Below are positions 57,339 through 59,153 of a DNA stretch of 64,000 bases, in pieces; within the stretch, counting starts at the first letter, position 1; every line of letters starts with the position of its first letter. Both the position numbers and the translations under genes were made by a program. The notes beneath the pieces are model-generated. The model was not told where the DNA came from. It saw only the letters and a list, made by a program, of their open reading frames with translations, and ran no database searches. This DNA comes from an uncultured Candidatus Saccharibacteria bacterium (GTDB taxonomy: Bacteria; Patescibacteriota; Minisyncoccia; Phycocordibacterales; UBA2100), in contig CAZELA010000001.1 of NCBI GenBank assembly GCA_964512835.1, positions 425,372 to 489,371 of the forward strand, in the 5' to 3' direction.

Positions 57339-57764
57339 TCAATTGAAGTTGTGAGGATTATAGCCGTTTTTTACGAAATTTCTAGTCGGGGCAAAGAGTG
57401 GCTCCGGAAGGTCGTCCCAGTCAAACCATGCCCAGTTTCCGATCTCCCCCACCGCATCCCGAGGCTCCCCGTCCAGCCAGTTAGCTACGAATTGCAGAGT
57501 AACCCAGTGAGTGCCCTTTTCGTGGTCGACATCATTGAGTACCACCATGAGGCGGGGTTTTTCGATGATCAGCCCTGTTTCTTCAAACACCTCTCGAATG
57601 GCGCCCTCGGTCGGGGTCTCGTACATATCCACGGCACCGCCGGGCACACACCACGATCCGACCTGGCTCCCCTTTTCCCGTTTGCCGAGCAGTACCTTTC
57701 CGTCCTTCACAATGTGAACTGCCGTGCCGATGCGCGGATACATGTGGCGAACATCATCCGTCAT
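57339..57764 (-). CDS. NUDIX hydrolase (inside ATP synthase operon)
   Basis: Nudix box [24 protein letters not shown]. It sits 2 nt from atpD. Confidence 0.8.
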
Positions 57765-58360
57765 ACAAATTCGGCCGCGAGAATTTCCCTGGCCTTTCTG
57801 AGCGCCCTCCCGCGATGACTCACACTATCGATCTCTTCCACCGTCATTTCTCCGAATGCGCGACCAAGGTCATTGGAAATAAAGAGCTGATCGAAACCGA
57901 AACCCCCGTCGCCCAGCGGCTCGGTTGCGAGCACGCCCTCGGTCACACCATATGCAAATCGAACTTTGTCCGTAGTCGGATCGTACATCGCTATCACATC
58001 ACGGTAGCGACAAGTACGTTTTTCAGTCGGCACGTCTTTCATCAAATCCAGCAACTGCGCGACTTTTTCCGCACGAGTTCCTTCAAAATAATGTGCCGTC
58101 TGGACCCCCATAGCCTCGGGAAACGCATCAAGCTCGAGACCGGAGTCGTCTGCAACTGCAAGCAGGTTTGTGTGTTTGCCGTACACAAACGCCTTGATGA
58201 TTGCGTGCGCTTCGTAGGTCGTCCCCGGTTCCTCTACGTCGAGTCCGGCAAGCTCCGGAAAATCATTGAGGGTTTTGAACGTAAACGGCGCACCCTTGAG
58301 CCCTTCCATAAGACCGGGAATCTTTCCCTTGTTTCCGGTTGCCAACAGCAGTTCACGCAT
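57761..58360 (-). CDS. rdgB: non-canonical purine NTP pyrophosphatase (RdgB/Ham1 ITPase)
   Basis: LLLATGNKGKI ... EEPGTTYEAHAIIKA ... ADDSGLELDA are the Ham1/RdgB signature blocks. Start at MREL (58360); the ORF is open to 58435. Confidence 0.8.
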   Translation of the reverse strand: MRELLLATGNKGKIPGLMEGLKGAPFTFKTLNDFPELAGLDVEEPGTTYEAHAIIKAFVYGKHTNLLAVADDSGLELDAFPEAMGVQTAHYFEGTRAEKVAQLLDLMKDVPTEKRTCRYRDVIAMYDPTTDKVRFAYGVTEGVLATEPLGDGGFGFDQLFISNDLGRAFGEMTVEEIDSVSHRGRALRKAREILAAEFV

Positions 58361-58370
58361 AGGCACGATA

Positions 58371-58703
58371 TTACAGCGAGTTCGGATCGATCGCGAATCC
58401 GTGTTTTCGCGCGATCGCAGCAAATAATTCCGCACGGGATTTAATAACCGCGTTGTACTCGGATAACGCTCGCTGATCCTGCAGTTCCTGCTGCATATGC
58501 GCCCGCGAACTTCTGAACAGCATCTCCATATCCGAGGACATGTGATTTTGGATATCGTCTTCGTAGAGTGCAGGCGTCGGCGCTTCGGAAAGCGTGTTCA
58601 GTACACCCTTCATGTGATCGCTTACGTAATCAGCGGCATCGAGCGTGTCGTGCATCTCTTTGTAGGCACTTTTTTGAGCAGCTGCGCGATCTTCGAGGGT
58701 CAT
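58371..58703 (-). CDS. hypothetical protein
   Basis: 110 aa acidic helical ORF between the Nudix and rdgB genes. Confidence 0.4.
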   Translation of the reverse strand: MTLEDRAAAQKSAYKEMHDTLDAADYVSDHMKGVLNTLSEAPTPALYEDDIQNHMSSDMEMLFRSSRAHMQQELQDQRALSEYNAVIKSRAELFAAIARKHGFAIDPNSL

Positions 58704-58706
58704 GCG

Positions 58707-59153
58707 CTATTTGTTATCAAATCCGTAATTGCTGAACGGAATTCCCCTTCGGATACAGCTGAGCGCCTGCGCAATGTACGGAATGGTGTTCGCAGGCAGA
58801 TCGTCCTCGGCGTAAAACCACAGATCAGAGCATTTTTCCGGTTCTTTGTTTGAAAGCTCGCCCTCCCACGCTTCTGCTTCGATGTACACGTCGAAGTAGG
58901 TACGGTCCGGGAACTGACGCTGCATCACGTGCACGATCTTGAGTTCACTGTTCGAAAGATCAAGATTCGCTTCTTCAAACACCTCGCGAATCAATGTCTG
59001 CTCTGCCGTCTCCCCGCGTTCAATATGACCGGAGACGAGTCCGTAGTTTCCGTCCTCGTGACCCGTGTTCTGCCGCTGAGAAAGCAAAACAGTATTCCCG
59101 TCTCCACGAAGTACCAGAAACGATGCCCCGTGGAACAGAAATTTGTCGCTCAT
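58707..59153 (-). CDS. NUDIX hydrolase (inside ATP synthase operon)
   Basis: Nudix box SGHIERGETAEQTLIREVFEEANL. It sits 3 nt from atpG. Confidence 0.8.
   Translation of the reverse strand: MSDKFLFHGASFLVLRGDGNTVLLSQRQNTGHEDGNYGLVSGHIERGETAEQTLIREVFEEANLDLSNSELKIVHVMQRQFPDRTYFDVYIEAEAWEGELSNKEPEKCSDLWFYAEDDLPANTIPYIAQALSCIRRGIPFSNYGFDNK

What the first reader, a model, noticed from the sequence alone, without database searches (positions are those of the whole stretch)
57339..59153. ATP synthase operon interrupted by two Nudix hydrolases, an ITPase (RdgB/Ham1) and a small unknown gene
The gene order is atpB-E-F-H-A-G, then Nudix, a hypothetical, rdgB, Nudix, then atpD-C. All are on the minus strand with intergenic gaps of only 2-10 nt, so they are tightly packed and co-directional, which suggests co-transcription with the F1 genes. 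The canonical atp operon has atpG directly followed by atpD. The cluster places nucleotide-pool sanitising enzymes (the two Nudix boxes are different, so the genes are not simple duplicates) inside the ATP-producing operon. Together with the leuS-embedded Nudix and the Nudix at 37709-38209, this window carries four Nudix domains plus Ham1 in 64 kb.
Basis: seen in the sequence. Interest (0 to 1): 0.6.

Follow-up and report, generated by a model that had tools for sequence, protein, structure and literature searches.

The report
Nucleotide-cleaning genes inside ATP synthase cluster
In an uncultured, tiny-genome (Kaiserbacteria-like) bacterium, four small genes, three of which encode enzymes that destroy damaged or abnormal nucleotides, sit between the gamma and beta subunit genes of ATP synthase. 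Relatives show that this slot is a recurrent home for such enzymes and that the beta gene very probably has its own promoter, written into the end of the last inserted gene.

Summary
The minus strand reads atpB-E-F-H-A-G | Nudix A | 110-aa orphan | RdgB/Ham1 | Nudix B | atpD-C, with gaps of 2, 3, 10, -4 and 1 nt. Eight independent metagenome assemblies and a 98 %-identical MAG show the same order.

This is a clade feature, not a one-off insertion. In 65 species-level relatives (Kaiserbacteria-like Paceibacteria) where the junction can be read, 47 carry genes between atpG and atpD:
- RdgB in 16.
- Nudix in 20.
- YjjX (a different ITPase family) in 1.
- CYTH in 1.

Nudix or YfbR-type HD nucleotidases also occur between atpA and atpG. 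Cargo turns over while the flanking atp genes stay 95-96 % identical.

New here: a TAGAAA-N16-TATAAT element ends 19 nt before the atpD start and overlaps the last codons of Nudix B. Its synonymous sites are frozen, and it survives as non-coding DNA where the Nudix gene has decayed. atpDC therefore probably has its own promoter, and gamma|beta is a transcription-unit boundary.

The 110-aa orphan belongs to a small family found only in this slot and is predicted to be a four-helix bundle. A functional coupling to ATP synthase is inferred, not shown. I found no report of this arrangement in the paper library.

The parts
62844..63635 (-). atpB (F0 subunit a), 263 aa
   Evidence: ORF. PF00119 on the identical gene.
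62535..62762 (-). atpE (F0 subunit c), 75 aa
   Evidence: ORF. PF00137.
62077..62523 (-). atpF (F0 subunit b), 148 aa
   Evidence: ORF. Assigned by position; orthologues in relatives hit PF00430.
61678..62067 (-). atpH (delta), short form of 129 aa
   Evidence: PF00213 OSCP, E 3.3e-6, covering profile positions 63-167 only.
60095..61660 (-). atpA (alpha), 521 aa
   Evidence: PF00006, PF00306 and PF02874.
59156..60070 (-). atpG (gamma), 304 aa
   Evidence: PF00231, E 2.2e-78, full length.
58707..59153 (-). Nudix A, 148 aa, MutT-like. Nudix box GHIERGETAEQTLIREVFEEAN at 58965-59030. Starts 2 nt after the atpG stop.
   Evidence: PF00293, E 3.5e-16. Best PDB matches are 4kyx and E. coli MutT. Below all NCBIfam equivalog cut-offs. 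Orthologues of 78-82 % identity occupy the same slot in L012 and L016, and a second subtype (37-40 % identity) in L011, L013 and L017.
58371..58703 (-). Orphan protein of 110 aa ('hyp'), predicted four-helix bundle. It always lies directly upstream of rdgB.
   Evidence: No Pfam, NCBIfam, PADLOC or PHROG hit. The only protein homologues across two searches, 1.84 billion representatives and 5.8 billion clusters, are 93, 62, 53 and 34 % identical. The two looked up (53 % and 34 %) and the 93 % relative in L010 occupy the same slot between atpG and atpD. One further weak hit (E 8.5e-4) matches only 35 residues of a 1640-aa protein. AlphaFold2 gives pLDDT 90 and pTM 0.82 with four helices. No Foldseek match in the PDB below E 0.1.
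57761..58360 (-). rdgB/Ham1-family non-canonical purine NTP pyrophosphatase (ITPase/XTPase type), 199 aa
   Evidence: PF01725, E 2.8e-41. Full-length alignment to E. coli RdgB/YggV (1k7k, E 2.9e-28) keeps the TGNxGK, EEpG, ADDSGL, GGFG(F/Y)D and SHRG motifs. Below NCBIfam equivalog cut-offs: 147 vs 234 and 119 vs 145.
57339..57764 (-). Nudix B, 141 aa, NUDT1/NUDT15/MTH1-like. Nudix box [22 protein letters not shown] at 57573-57638. Its start overlaps the rdgB stop (ATGA). Its stop lies 1 nt before the atpD start.
   Evidence: PF00293, E 2.8e-21. PDB matches are 4dyw, Arabidopsis NUDT1 and human NUDT15. One position-specific clade lies directly upstream of atpD in 20 relatives.
57357..57384 (-). 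Sigma-70-type promoter-like element TAGAAA-N16-TATAAT, embedded in Nudix B codons T-R-N-F-x-x-x-G-Y-N. The -10 hexamer ends 19 nt upstream of the atpD ATG.
   Evidence: It is the only consensus match in 55400-64000. It is conserved at nucleotide level in Nudix B genes that are only about 41-65 % identical in protein. Synonymous sites inside the hexamers are frozen: ACT 15/15, AGA 11/13, TAT 16/16, AAT 34/34. Asn codons just outside are AAC 16 to AAT 2, Fisher p = 1.5e-11. It persists as non-coding DNA in L093/L094, L033, L017 and L024. Of 22 genome-context matches in 1.1 Mb, 20 lie between atpG and atpD.
55949..57337 (-). atpD (beta), 462 aa
   Evidence: PF00006, PF02874 and PF22919.
55691..55939 (-). 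atpC (epsilon), 82 aa, beta-sandwich domain only
   Evidence: PF02823, E 1.3e-18, covering residues 6-81.

Best explanation
What it is: a genuine, lineage-typical organisation of the F-type ATP synthase locus in a Kaiserbacteria-like member of the Paceibacteria (Patescibacteria/CPR).

How it most likely works:
1. The gamma|beta junction is a transcription-unit boundary. atpD-atpC has its own sigma-70-type promoter, which in this genome is written into the last ~15 codons of Nudix B.
2. The space between atpG and that promoter holds a 'house-cleaning' module:
   - a MutT-like Nudix (A);
   - a lineage-specific four-helix protein;
   - the ITP/XTP pyrophosphatase RdgB;
   - a NUDT1/15-like Nudix (B) that is translationally coupled to RdgB through an ATGA overlap.
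3. These genes have no promoter or terminator of their own. They are most simply expressed as a 3' extension of the atpBEFHAG transcript, by read-through and by re-initiation across gaps of 1-10 nt.
4. This would give constitutive expression tied to that of the ATP synthase, in a small genome with few promoters. Scavenged nucleotides are the presumed source of abnormal NTPs (assumption from general knowledge of CPR bacteria, not tested here).
5. The same slot, and the alpha|gamma slot, in relatives is repeatedly filled with nucleotide (pyro)phosphatases of unrelated families, and the occupants are exchanged over time.

Shown:
- The arrangement and its reproducibility.
- Its conservation and turnover in relatives.
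- The family assignments.
- The nucleotide-level constraint on the promoter-like element.

Inferred:
- Promoter activity.
- Co-transcription of the cargo with atpG.
- The enzyme substrates.
- Any selective reason for placing these enzymes here.
For: Arrangement and packing. Independent assemblies.

Species-level census:
- 47 of 65 loci have more than 150 nt between atpG and atpD.
- RdgB occurs in 16 and Nudix in 20 (six loci have two).
- 26 loci carry at least one NTP-pyrophosphatase-type gene.
- Basal relatives (AtpG 52-53 % identical: L066-L070) have the canonical tight A-G-D-C order.

Other enzyme families in the same slots:
- YjjX/NTPase_I-T (PF01931, E 9.5e-41) replaces RdgB in L014 and keeps the ATGA overlap with Nudix B.
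- CYTH occurs in L062.
- YfbR-like HD nucleotidases lie between atpA and atpG in L018 and L027.

Background: none of 717 ORFs flanking the operons hits the Nudix or RdgB HMMs at E 1e-5, against 44 of 104 junction ORFs.

View from the cargo side:
- RdgB homologues of 63, 60 and 48 % identity, picked from a database-wide search, all lie between atpG and atpD.
- The orphan's homologues that were looked up (53 % and 34 % identical) do too.

The junction Nudix genes form three position-specific clades.

Turnover:
- L011, L013, L014 and L016 share 95-96 % AtpA+G+D identity and conserved synteny, and their neighbours are 75-95 % identical.
- Yet Nudix A is 39-69 % identical among them, the ITPase is 45-73 % identical or replaced by YjjX, and Nudix B is 41-59 %.
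- Nudix A of L016 is 79 % identical to the window's.

Promoter.
- A sigma-70-like site lies within 80 nt upstream of atpD in 39 of 74 loci. The figures are 4 of 80 for atpG and 1 of 65 for atpC.
- Non-atp-linked homologues of Nudix B have variable residues where the atp-linked ones spell TAGAAA and TATAAT.

No promoter-like sites upstream of the cargo genes.
Against: - There are no expression data. Promoter activity rests on consensus architecture and sequence constraint only.
- The conserved element could instead be a translation-initiation or other nucleic-acid signal for atpD.
- Sigma-70-like scans are crude. In the window, one match was found where 4.8 are expected by chance. The case rests on conservation, not on the match itself.
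- About half of the junction ORFs are not nucleotide enzymes. They include a MazF-like toxin, a 23S-rRNA-IVP four-helix protein, small membrane proteins and coiled-coil orphans.
- Many lineages have lost the cargo. Placement here is therefore dispensable, which fits mere tolerance of the site as well.
- Counts across species are not phylogenetically independent. Nudix B is one clade, which is compatible with a single ancient recruitment.
- All relatives are MAG or metagenome contigs.
- RdgB and both Nudix proteins score below NCBIfam equivalog cut-offs, so their substrates are not established.
Confidence: 0.7

Rival explanations
1. Neutral hitch-hiking. The gamma|beta and alpha|gamma junctions are simply permissive landing sites, being transcription-unit boundaries in a highly expressed locus. 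Any small gene can lodge there. The excess of nucleotide hydrolases reflects descent from a few old insertions and the abundance of Nudix genes in these genomes, not selection for linkage to ATP synthase.
For: - Cargo is heterogeneous. It includes MazF-like toxins, 23S_rRNA_IVP proteins, membrane proteins and many orphans.
- Cargo is absent in 18 of 65 lineages, and atpD lies elsewhere in L021, L036 and L037.
- Nudix B forms a single clade.
- The window itself holds two further Nudix domains away from the atp genes.
Against: - At least seven separate gene lineages from five different families of nucleotide (pyro)phosphatases were recruited to two adjacent junctions: three Nudix clades, RdgB, YjjX, CYTH and HD-YfbR.
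- YjjX replaces RdgB in the exact position with the same ATGA coupling.
- None of 717 flanking ORFs belongs to the Nudix or RdgB families as modelled.
- RdgB stays in this slot down to 48 % identity.
Confidence: 0.22
2. Direct functional or physical coupling to F1. The cargo enzymes act on nucleotides handled by the ATP synthase, for example by removing ITP, XTP or oxidised GTP made or bound by a promiscuous F1. The small helical orphans would be lineage-specific accessory or regulatory subunits that compensate for the truncated delta and epsilon subunits.
For: - The same enzyme theme recurs and undergoes non-orthologous replacement.
- The orphan family is found only inside the F1 gene block.
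- Delta is 129 aa and epsilon is 82 aa without its regulatory C-terminal domain.
- From general knowledge (not tested here), F1 accepts GTP and ITP or GDP and IDP.
Against: - There is no evidence of interaction.
- The orphans at this position in different relatives are not detectably homologous to each other (HHalign probabilities below 3 %).
- The predicted four-helix bundle matches nothing informative.
- Cargo is absent in many relatives that have the same truncated delta and epsilon.
Confidence: 0.06
3. A hypervariable accessory or defence island flanked by conserved core genes. The Nudix and ITPase genes would serve in phage defence or counter-defence by manipulating nucleotides.
For: - Cargo is mosaic and fast-turning between 95-96 % identical flanks.
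- MazF-like toxins occur in the same slots.
- Both Nudix proteins give weak hits to the candidate PADLOC family PDC-S07.
Against: - RdgB has no PADLOC or PHROG hit, and the Nudix hits are generic.
- RdgB is a widespread housekeeping enzyme with its catalytic motifs intact.
- No mobile-element genes or repeats are present, and base composition matches the flanks.
- Gene junctions of 1-10 nt leave no room for recombination sites.
Confidence: 0.02
4. Assembly or binning artefact that joins unrelated fragments.
For: One contig (L001) ends 28 nt after atpG, and several short contigs end inside the cargo.
Against: - Eight contigs from different samples and two assembly pipelines (JGI and Logan) span atpG into the cargo.
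- Two of them (L003, L004) run from atpG through all four cargo genes and the complete atpD.
- Many independent MAGs of related species show the same architecture with gene-exact junctions.
Confidence: 0.005

Closest known systems
Canonical bacterial F1Fo ATP synthase operon (E. coli atpIBEFHAGDC)
   Same: All eight structural genes are present, in the canonical order and on one strand.
   Different: Four unrelated genes lie between atpG and atpD. Delta and epsilon are truncated. No atpI was identified. atpDC probably has its own promoter.
Split atp clusters of cyanobacteria and chloroplasts (atp1 ends with gamma; atp2 = beta-epsilon). Cited from general knowledge.
   Same: The break point is the same gamma|beta junction, and beta-epsilon forms a separate transcription unit. 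Some relatives here (L021, L036, L037) have no atpD within 8 kb of atpG.
   Different: Here the two units remain adjacent and co-directional, with the gap filled by nucleotide-hydrolase genes. The promoter overlaps a coding sequence.
Extra reading frame between the gamma and beta genes reported for the Rhodopseudomonas blastica atp operon. Recalled from the 1980s literature; not retrievable in the paper library.
   Same: It is a precedent for a foreign ORF at exactly this junction.
   Different: That case is a single ORF of unknown function in an alphaproteobacterium. No enzyme theme and no clade-wide pattern are known to me.
House-cleaning NTP pyrophosphatases: RdgB/ITPA (Ham1 family), MutT/MTH1/NUDT15 (Nudix), YjjX
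   Same: Family membership by profile, conserved catalytic motifs, and closest solved structures of these types.
   Different: The genomic context differs. In E. coli and Bacillus, as far as I recall, these genes lie in unrelated operons. Scores are below the NCBIfam equivalog cut-offs, so exact substrates are open.
Nudix domains embedded in aminoacyl-tRNA synthetases of candidate phyla (IleRS of SR1; Kantor et al. 2013, PMC3812714)
   Same: This is another case of Nudix modules lodged inside core housekeeping genes in CPR-type genomes. The window's LeuS carries one.
   Different: That case is a domain fusion inside a protein. The case here is separate genes inside a gene cluster.

Membership tests
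F-type ATP synthase gene cluster | Genes for a, c, b, delta, alpha, gamma, beta and epsilon, each recognisable by profile and in conserved order | tested here: met
   Pfam hits for delta, alpha, gamma, beta and epsilon. Subunits a and c hit. Subunit b is assigned by position and by PF00430 in orthologues.
F-type ATP synthase gene cluster | atpG directly followed by atpD (contiguous F1 block) | tested here: not met
   1,817 nt and four genes lie between them. The junction is tight (28-39 nt) in the basal relatives L066, L067, L068 and L070.
RdgB/Ham1 non-canonical purine NTP pyrophosphatase | Full-length match to the family profile | tested here: met
   PF01725, E 2.8e-41, profile positions 1-185 of 186.
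RdgB/Ham1 non-canonical purine NTP pyrophosphatase | Score above the curated equivalog cut-off (NCBIfam NF011397 or TIGR00042) | tested here: not met
   147.4 vs 234 bits and 118.7 vs 145.35 bits. It is a divergent family member.
RdgB/Ham1 non-canonical purine NTP pyrophosphatase | Conserved substrate- and metal-binding motifs (TGNxGK, acidic E, DDSGL, FGYD-like, SHR) | tested here: met
   Residue-by-residue alignment to E. coli RdgB, 1k7k and 2pyu.
RdgB/Ham1 non-canonical purine NTP pyrophosphatase | ITP/XTP/dITP pyrophosphatase activity | not testable with these tools
   This needs an enzyme assay.
Nudix hydrolase superfamily | Nudix box GX5EX7REUXEEXGU within a Nudix fold domain | tested here: met
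   Nudix B has the full box. Nudix A has N in place of the last G. Both hit PF00293.
MutT (8-oxo-dGTP diphosphatase) equivalog | Score above the NCBIfam NF008044 or TIGR00586 cut-off | tested here: not met
   44.2 and 40.4 bits vs 148; 38.8 and 39.5 bits vs 97.9. They are MutT-like but are not filed as MutT.
Sigma-70-type promoter (for atpDC) | -35-like and -10-like hexamers separated by 16-18 nt, just upstream of the gene | tested here: met
   TAGAAA-16-TATAAT, 10 of 12 matches, ending 19 nt before the ATG. Equivalent bipartite sites occur in 39 of 74 relatives.
Sigma-70-type promoter (for atpDC) | Sequence constraint beyond what the overlapping protein requires | tested here: met
   Frozen synonymous sites. 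Non-coding relics. Variable residues at the same positions in non-atp homologues.
Sigma-70-type promoter (for atpDC) | A mapped transcription start | not testable with these tools
   This needs dRNA-seq, 5'-RACE or a reporter assay.
Known anti-phage defence systems (PADLOC) | Profile match of the components to a defined system | tested here: not met
   Only weak, generic Nudix hits to the candidate family PDC-S07. Nothing for RdgB or the orphan.

The most novel reading that the evidence does not exclude
In this CPR lineage, NTP-pool sanitation is functionally wired to the ATP synthase. Enzymes that destroy ITP, XTP and oxidised NTPs have been recruited again and again, from at least five unrelated families, into the F1 gene block. 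The reason would be that a nucleotide-scavenging cell with a promiscuous F1 needs them in step with ATP synthase activity. The lineage-restricted helical orphans in the same slots, including the 110-aa protein here, would be new accessory or regulatory partners of F1 or of RdgB that compensate for the truncated delta and epsilon subunits.
Probability: 0.1. Interest if true: 0.8.

Novelty: new variant of a known kind. Interest (0 to 1): 0.58.

Why it matters
The ATP synthase operon is among the most conserved gene arrays in bacteria. Finding a whole clade in which its F1 block is a recurrent home for nucleotide-sanitising enzymes matters for several reasons.

- **A testable hypothesis.** Analogous enzymes swap into the same position. 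This gives a concrete hypothesis about how ultra-small, nucleotide-scavenging CPR bacteria link energy metabolism to nucleotide quality control.
- **A candidate promoter.** Promoters are essentially uncharacterised in CPR organisms. This one is shared with a coding sequence and has outlived its host gene, which makes it useful for annotating transcription units in these genomes.
- **A candidate protein.** The work points to a small, structurally confident orphan protein family whose only known context is this locus.

If the linkage is merely hitch-hiking at a transcription-unit boundary, the case is still a clean example of how reduced genomes reuse strong housekeeping transcription.

Tried and rejected
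- **Metagenome scan:** a metagenome-contig scan with RdgB returned one irrelevant locus at 36 % identity. I replaced it with database homologues plus context look-ups.
- **Structure searches:** the AFDB50 fold library was not available. Foldseek against the PDB gave no match below E 0.1 for the orphan.
- **Small junction ORFs:** HMM iteration and HHalign did not link the orphan family to the other small junction ORFs. The best in-set E-value was 0.0015 for L049, and HHalign probabilities were below 3 %. The idea that all 'small ORF before rdgB' proteins are one family is not supported.
- **Defence and phage libraries:** PADLOC and PHROGs added nothing specific.
- **RNA genes:** Rfam and tRNA scans of the window found nothing.
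- **Pfam on further junction ORFs:** 20 more ORFs gave only sub-threshold hits, apart from an RNase H-like domain (PF13456, RVT_3) and an EamA transporter-like ORF in the distant L084.
- **Strict vertical inheritance of the cargo:** Mantel correlations of RdgB and Nudix B distances with atp distances are weak (r = 0.22 and 0.29). Part of this is saturation. I therefore rely on the close-relative comparison for the claim of turnover, and I do not claim replacement for Nudix B, which is monophyletic.
- **Foreign origin of the insert:** GC content and GC skew are no different from the flanks.
- **Literature:** searches on Nudix or rdgB with the atp operon, on Kaiserbacteria ATP synthase, on 'between atpG and atpD' and on Rhodopseudomonas blastica found no description of this arrangement.
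Full report
**1. The observation**

The minus strand of window 55691-63635 carries a complete F-type ATP synthase gene set in canonical order. Four extra genes lie between atpG (59156-60070) and atpD (55949-57337):
- Nudix A, 58707-59153.
- A 110-aa ORF with no family hit, 58371-58703.
- A Ham1/RdgB-family gene, 57761-58360.
- Nudix B, 57339-57764.

The rdgB start is the ATG that gives 199 aa. 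That length matches the public gene calls and all homologues.

The junctions read directly from the sequence are 2, 3, 10, -4 (ATGA) and 1 nt. They are tighter than the junctions between the atp genes themselves, which are 9-81 nt. The two Nudix proteins are about 26 % identical. GC content and skew of the insert do not differ from the flanks.

One of those domains sits inside the LeuS ORF.

**2. Not an artefact**

The identical AtpG protein occurs on contigs from nine samples. Eight of those contigs (JGI and Logan assemblies) continue into the same cargo genes, and two of them (L003, L004) run from atpG through the complete atpD. A MAG with 98 % AtpG identity (L010) has the same order with an intact rdgB.

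**3. Who it is and what relatives look like**

A scan of one genome per GTDB species with AtpG returned 78 loci. The records are titled Kaiserbacteria, Paceibacterota, Parcubacteria or Patescibacteria. Some automated bins are titled Saccharibacteria. I located atpA, atpG, atpD and atpC in each locus and classified what lies between them.

At the atpG|atpD junction, 65 loci could be read:
- 18 are tight (150 nt or less) and 47 carry extra DNA, up to 3.5 kb.
- RdgB is present in 16 and Nudix in 20 (two copies in six).
- L014 has a YjjX-type NTPase (PF01931, E 9.5e-41) and L062 has a CYTH domain protein.
- 26 loci carry at least one NTP-pyrophosphatase-type gene.

At the atpA|atpG junction, 22 of 69 loci carry extra genes. 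Four have a Nudix, and two have a YfbR-like HD 5'-deoxynucleotidase (L018, L027).

Other cargo includes MazF-like toxins, 23S-rRNA-IVP four-helix proteins, small membrane proteins and many helical orphans.

On a tree of concatenated AtpA+G+D, the basal relatives (AtpG 52-53 % identical: L066-L070) have the canonical tight order. The cargo-bearing species are spread through one large clade. Three relatives have no atpD within 8 kb of atpG.

As a crude background, none of 717 non-overlapping ORFs outside atpA..atpC in the same loci hits HMMs built from the junction Nudix and RdgB proteins at E 1e-5. Inside the junctions, 44 of 104 ORFs do. These counts are not phylogenetically independent.

**4. 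The view from the cargo**

RdgB homologues taken from a database-wide search at 63, 60 and 48 % identity all lie between atpG and atpD. One at 45 % lies elsewhere, in a different kind of genome. Nudix B homologues at 48 % identity or less from other organisms are not atp-linked.

The junction Nudix genes fall into three position-specific clades:
- Directly after atpG (Nudix A type, with two deep subtypes).
- Between atpA and atpG.
- Directly before atpD (Nudix B type).

Counting these three together with RdgB, YjjX, CYTH and HD-YfbR gives at least seven separate recruitments of nucleotide (pyro)phosphatase genes into two adjacent junctions. In L014, YjjX occupies exactly the RdgB position and keeps the 4-nt ATGA overlap with Nudix B. 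YjjX is an ITPase/XTPase of a different Pfam family, a point I take from general knowledge.

**5. Turnover**

L011, L013, L014 and L016 are 95-96 % identical in AtpA+G+D and fully syntenic. Their ordinary neighbours are 75-95 % identical. Their cargo differs much more:
- Nudix A is 39-69 % identical among them, and L014 has none.
- The ITPase is 45-73 % identical, or is replaced by YjjX.
- Nudix B is 41-59 % identical.

Nudix A of L016 is 79 % identical to the window's, although the window is the more distant genome. That requires exchange or differential retention rather than rate variation alone. DNA identity drops from about 82 % in atpG to about 46-68 % across the cargo and returns to about 84 % at the first bases of atpD.

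**6. A promoter written into Nudix B**

The consensus scan found a single sigma-70-like site in 55400-64000. It is TAGAAA-N16-TATAAT at 57384-57357 on the coding strand, and it ends 19 nt before the atpD ATG. One match is not significant in itself, since 4.8 are expected by chance. The case rests on the following.

- **Conservation at nucleotide level.** The same element is conserved in Nudix B genes that are only about 41-65 % identical in protein. It overlaps the codons T-R-N-F-x-x-x-G-Y-N-P.
- **Frozen synonymous sites.** In 18 distinct gene tails, the sites inside the two hexamers do not vary:

| Codon inside hexamers | Observed | Background use in the same genes |
|---|---|---|
| ACT (Thr) | 15/15 | 15 % |
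| AGA (Arg) | 11/13 | 5.6 % |
| TAT (Tyr) | 16/16 | 41 % |
| AAT (Asn) | 34/34 | 40 % |

- **Internal control.** Asn codons three or four positions outside the hexamers are AAC 16 to AAT 2 (Fisher p = 1.5e-11). Phe, Gly, Pro, Leu and Glu codons in the same tails vary freely.
- **Comparison with unlinked homologues.** Homologues of Nudix B that are not next to atpD have variable residues at exactly these positions.
- **Survival without the gene.**
  - In L093/L094 the 5' part of Nudix B, including the Nudix box, is deleted and the remnant is frameshifted.
  - The last 52 nt before atpD are nevertheless identical to the window, against 73 % identity for the rest of the remnant.
  - Non-coding copies also occur in L033, L017 and L024.
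- **Site specificity.** A regular expression for the element finds 22 matches in 1.1 Mb on both strands. Twenty of them lie between atpG and atpD on the coding strand.
- **Loci without cargo.** Loci with a direct atpG-atpD junction carry TTGAAA-17-TAAAAT, TTGTCA-16-TAAAAT or similar in the roughly 42-nt gap.

Frequency of a sigma-70-like site in the 80 nt upstream of each gene, or in the 80 nt at the 3' end of atpG:

| Region scanned | Loci with a site |
|---|---|
| atpD | 39 of 74 |
| atpA | 26 of 69 |
| atpG | 4 of 80 |
| atpC | 1 of 65 |
| rdgB | 1 of 28 |
| 3' end of atpG | 2 of 81 |

No terminator-like site lies on the coding strand inside the insert.

I conclude that atpDC very probably has its own promoter in this clade. 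The gamma|beta junction is then a transcription-unit boundary, and the cargo depends on read-through from atpG. Promoter activity itself is inferred. A translation-initiation role for the A/T-rich element cannot be excluded.

**7. The proteins**

- **RdgB.** It aligns over its full length with E. coli RdgB and keeps the known motifs. It scores below the NCBIfam equivalog cut-offs.
- **Nudix B.** Its closest solved structures are Burkholderia 4dyw, Arabidopsis NUDT1 and human NUDT15/MTH1.
- **Nudix A.** Its closest solved structures are Rickettsia 4kyx and E. coli MutT.
- Both Nudix proteins are MutT-like NTP pyrophosphatase candidates, but they are not MutT equivalogs.
- **The 110-aa ORF.** It is a real gene.
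  - Its only protein homologues across two searches, 1.84 billion representatives and 5.8 billion clusters, are 93, 62, 53 and 34 % identical.
  - The two looked up (53 % and 34 %) and the 93 % relative in L010 lie directly upstream of rdgB between atpG and atpD. One further weak hit (E 8.5e-4) covers only 35 residues of a 1640-aa protein.
  - AlphaFold2 on the five-sequence alignment gives a confident four-helix bundle (pLDDT 90, pTM 0.82).
  - That model has no informative structural neighbour in the PDB.
  - The small ORFs at the equivalent position in other relatives are not detectably related to it.

**8. Interpretation**

The best-supported account is a house-cleaning module carried at the 3' end of the atpBEFHAG transcription unit, immediately upstream of a separate atpDC promoter. 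The module is an ITPase plus MutT-like Nudix enzymes, partly coupled in translation.

Whether its position reflects selection for co-expression with ATP synthase, or only the permissiveness of a boundary in a strongly expressed locus, is not settled.
- For selection: repeated recruitment of unrelated nucleotide hydrolases, and the in-place swap of RdgB for YjjX.
- For permissiveness: the heterogeneous remaining cargo and the frequent losses.

A direct physical or regulatory role at F1 is possible but unsupported.

**9. Comparison and novelty**

The enzymes are new, divergent members of known families. The gene arrangement is a new variant of atp locus organisation.

The closest precedents, both cited from general knowledge, are:
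- The cyanobacterial and chloroplast split at the same gamma|beta junction.
- An extra ORF reported at that junction in Rhodopseudomonas blastica.

Six searches of the paper library found no description of Nudix, RdgB or similar genes inside an atp operon, in CPR bacteria or elsewhere. Kantor et al. 2013 (PMC3812714) describe a Nudix domain splitting an IleRS in SR1. That parallels the LeuS-embedded Nudix domain seen in this window.

**10. Verdict**

Interest is moderate to fairly high, at 0.58.

The case offers three things:
- A clean, clade-wide and previously undescribed association with a testable functional hypothesis.
- A well-supported candidate CPR promoter shared with a coding sequence.
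- An orphan protein family restricted to this locus.

There is no evidence yet for a new mechanism.

Noticed in passing
window 44739-47630 (-), Nudix box at 46290-46355: The 963-aa LeuS ORF contains a NUDIX domain (aa 396-513, Pfam E 7.2e-15) inserted just after the editing domain. This is comparable to the Nudix-split IleRS reported for SR1 (PMC3812714).
   Followed up: partly
window 37709-38209 (-): A stand-alone Nudix hydrolase of 166 aa (PF00293, E 2.8e-20) lies next to a class I methyltransferase (38222-38992).
   Followed up: partly
window 61678-62067 (atpH) and 55691-55939 (atpC): Delta is only 129 aa and matches the OSCP profile at positions 63-167 only. Epsilon is 82 aa, just the beta-sandwich domain without the regulatory C-terminal helices. 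The same short forms occur in relatives (118-130 aa and 80-85 aa).
   Followed up: partly
window 54353-55636 and 52299-54308 (-): Two large ORFs (427 and 669 aa) lie directly downstream of atpC and have no Pfam hit. They are only 31-57 % identical between relatives whose atp genes are 85-98 % identical. They are fast-evolving and may be surface proteins.
   Followed up: no
L001 (ends 28 nt after atpG); L005, L007, L009 (end 16-60 nt after the orphan gene): Several assemblies of the same population break at or inside the cargo. This could reflect strain-level variation in the cargo or merely low coverage.
   Followed up: no
L020, L024, L026, L054, L056 (e.g. L024:8995-9348): A conserved small protein of 91-117 aa (motif KLDRVI ... 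QLSRHEEWIKLIAKK) with no Pfam hit sits directly upstream of atpD in five species. In L024 it lies downstream of a relic of the promoter element (L024:8956).
   Followed up: partly
L050:8922-9209 and 10054-10341: Two identical copies of a 95-aa membrane ORF flank an atp-like 263-aa ORF between atpG and atpD. This is either a local duplication or an assembly artefact.
   Followed up: no
3' end of atpH in many relatives (e.g. L018, L020, L022, L040); window about 61680-61720: The Y-N codons near the AtpH C-terminus often spell TATAAT about 20-30 nt upstream of atpA, and 26 of 69 loci have a sigma-70-like site there. The codons vary, however (TAC AAC in the window), so the case for a second internal promoter is weaker than for atpD.
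   Followed up: partly
L021, L036, L037: No atpD is found within 8 kb downstream of atpG. In these species the locus appears physically split at the same junction.
   Followed up: no
L025:3806-4210, L038:8918-9370; L031:8934-9290, L039:8946-9302: MazF/PemK-like toxin genes and 23S-rRNA-IVP (four-helix) genes also occupy the F1 junctions in some species.
   Followed up: partly
whole window: No tRNA gene and no Rfam family at gathering threshold were found in 64 kb. None of the 14 start codons examined (atpB to the 669-aa ORF) has a recognisable Shine-Dalgarno motif upstream.
   Followed up: no
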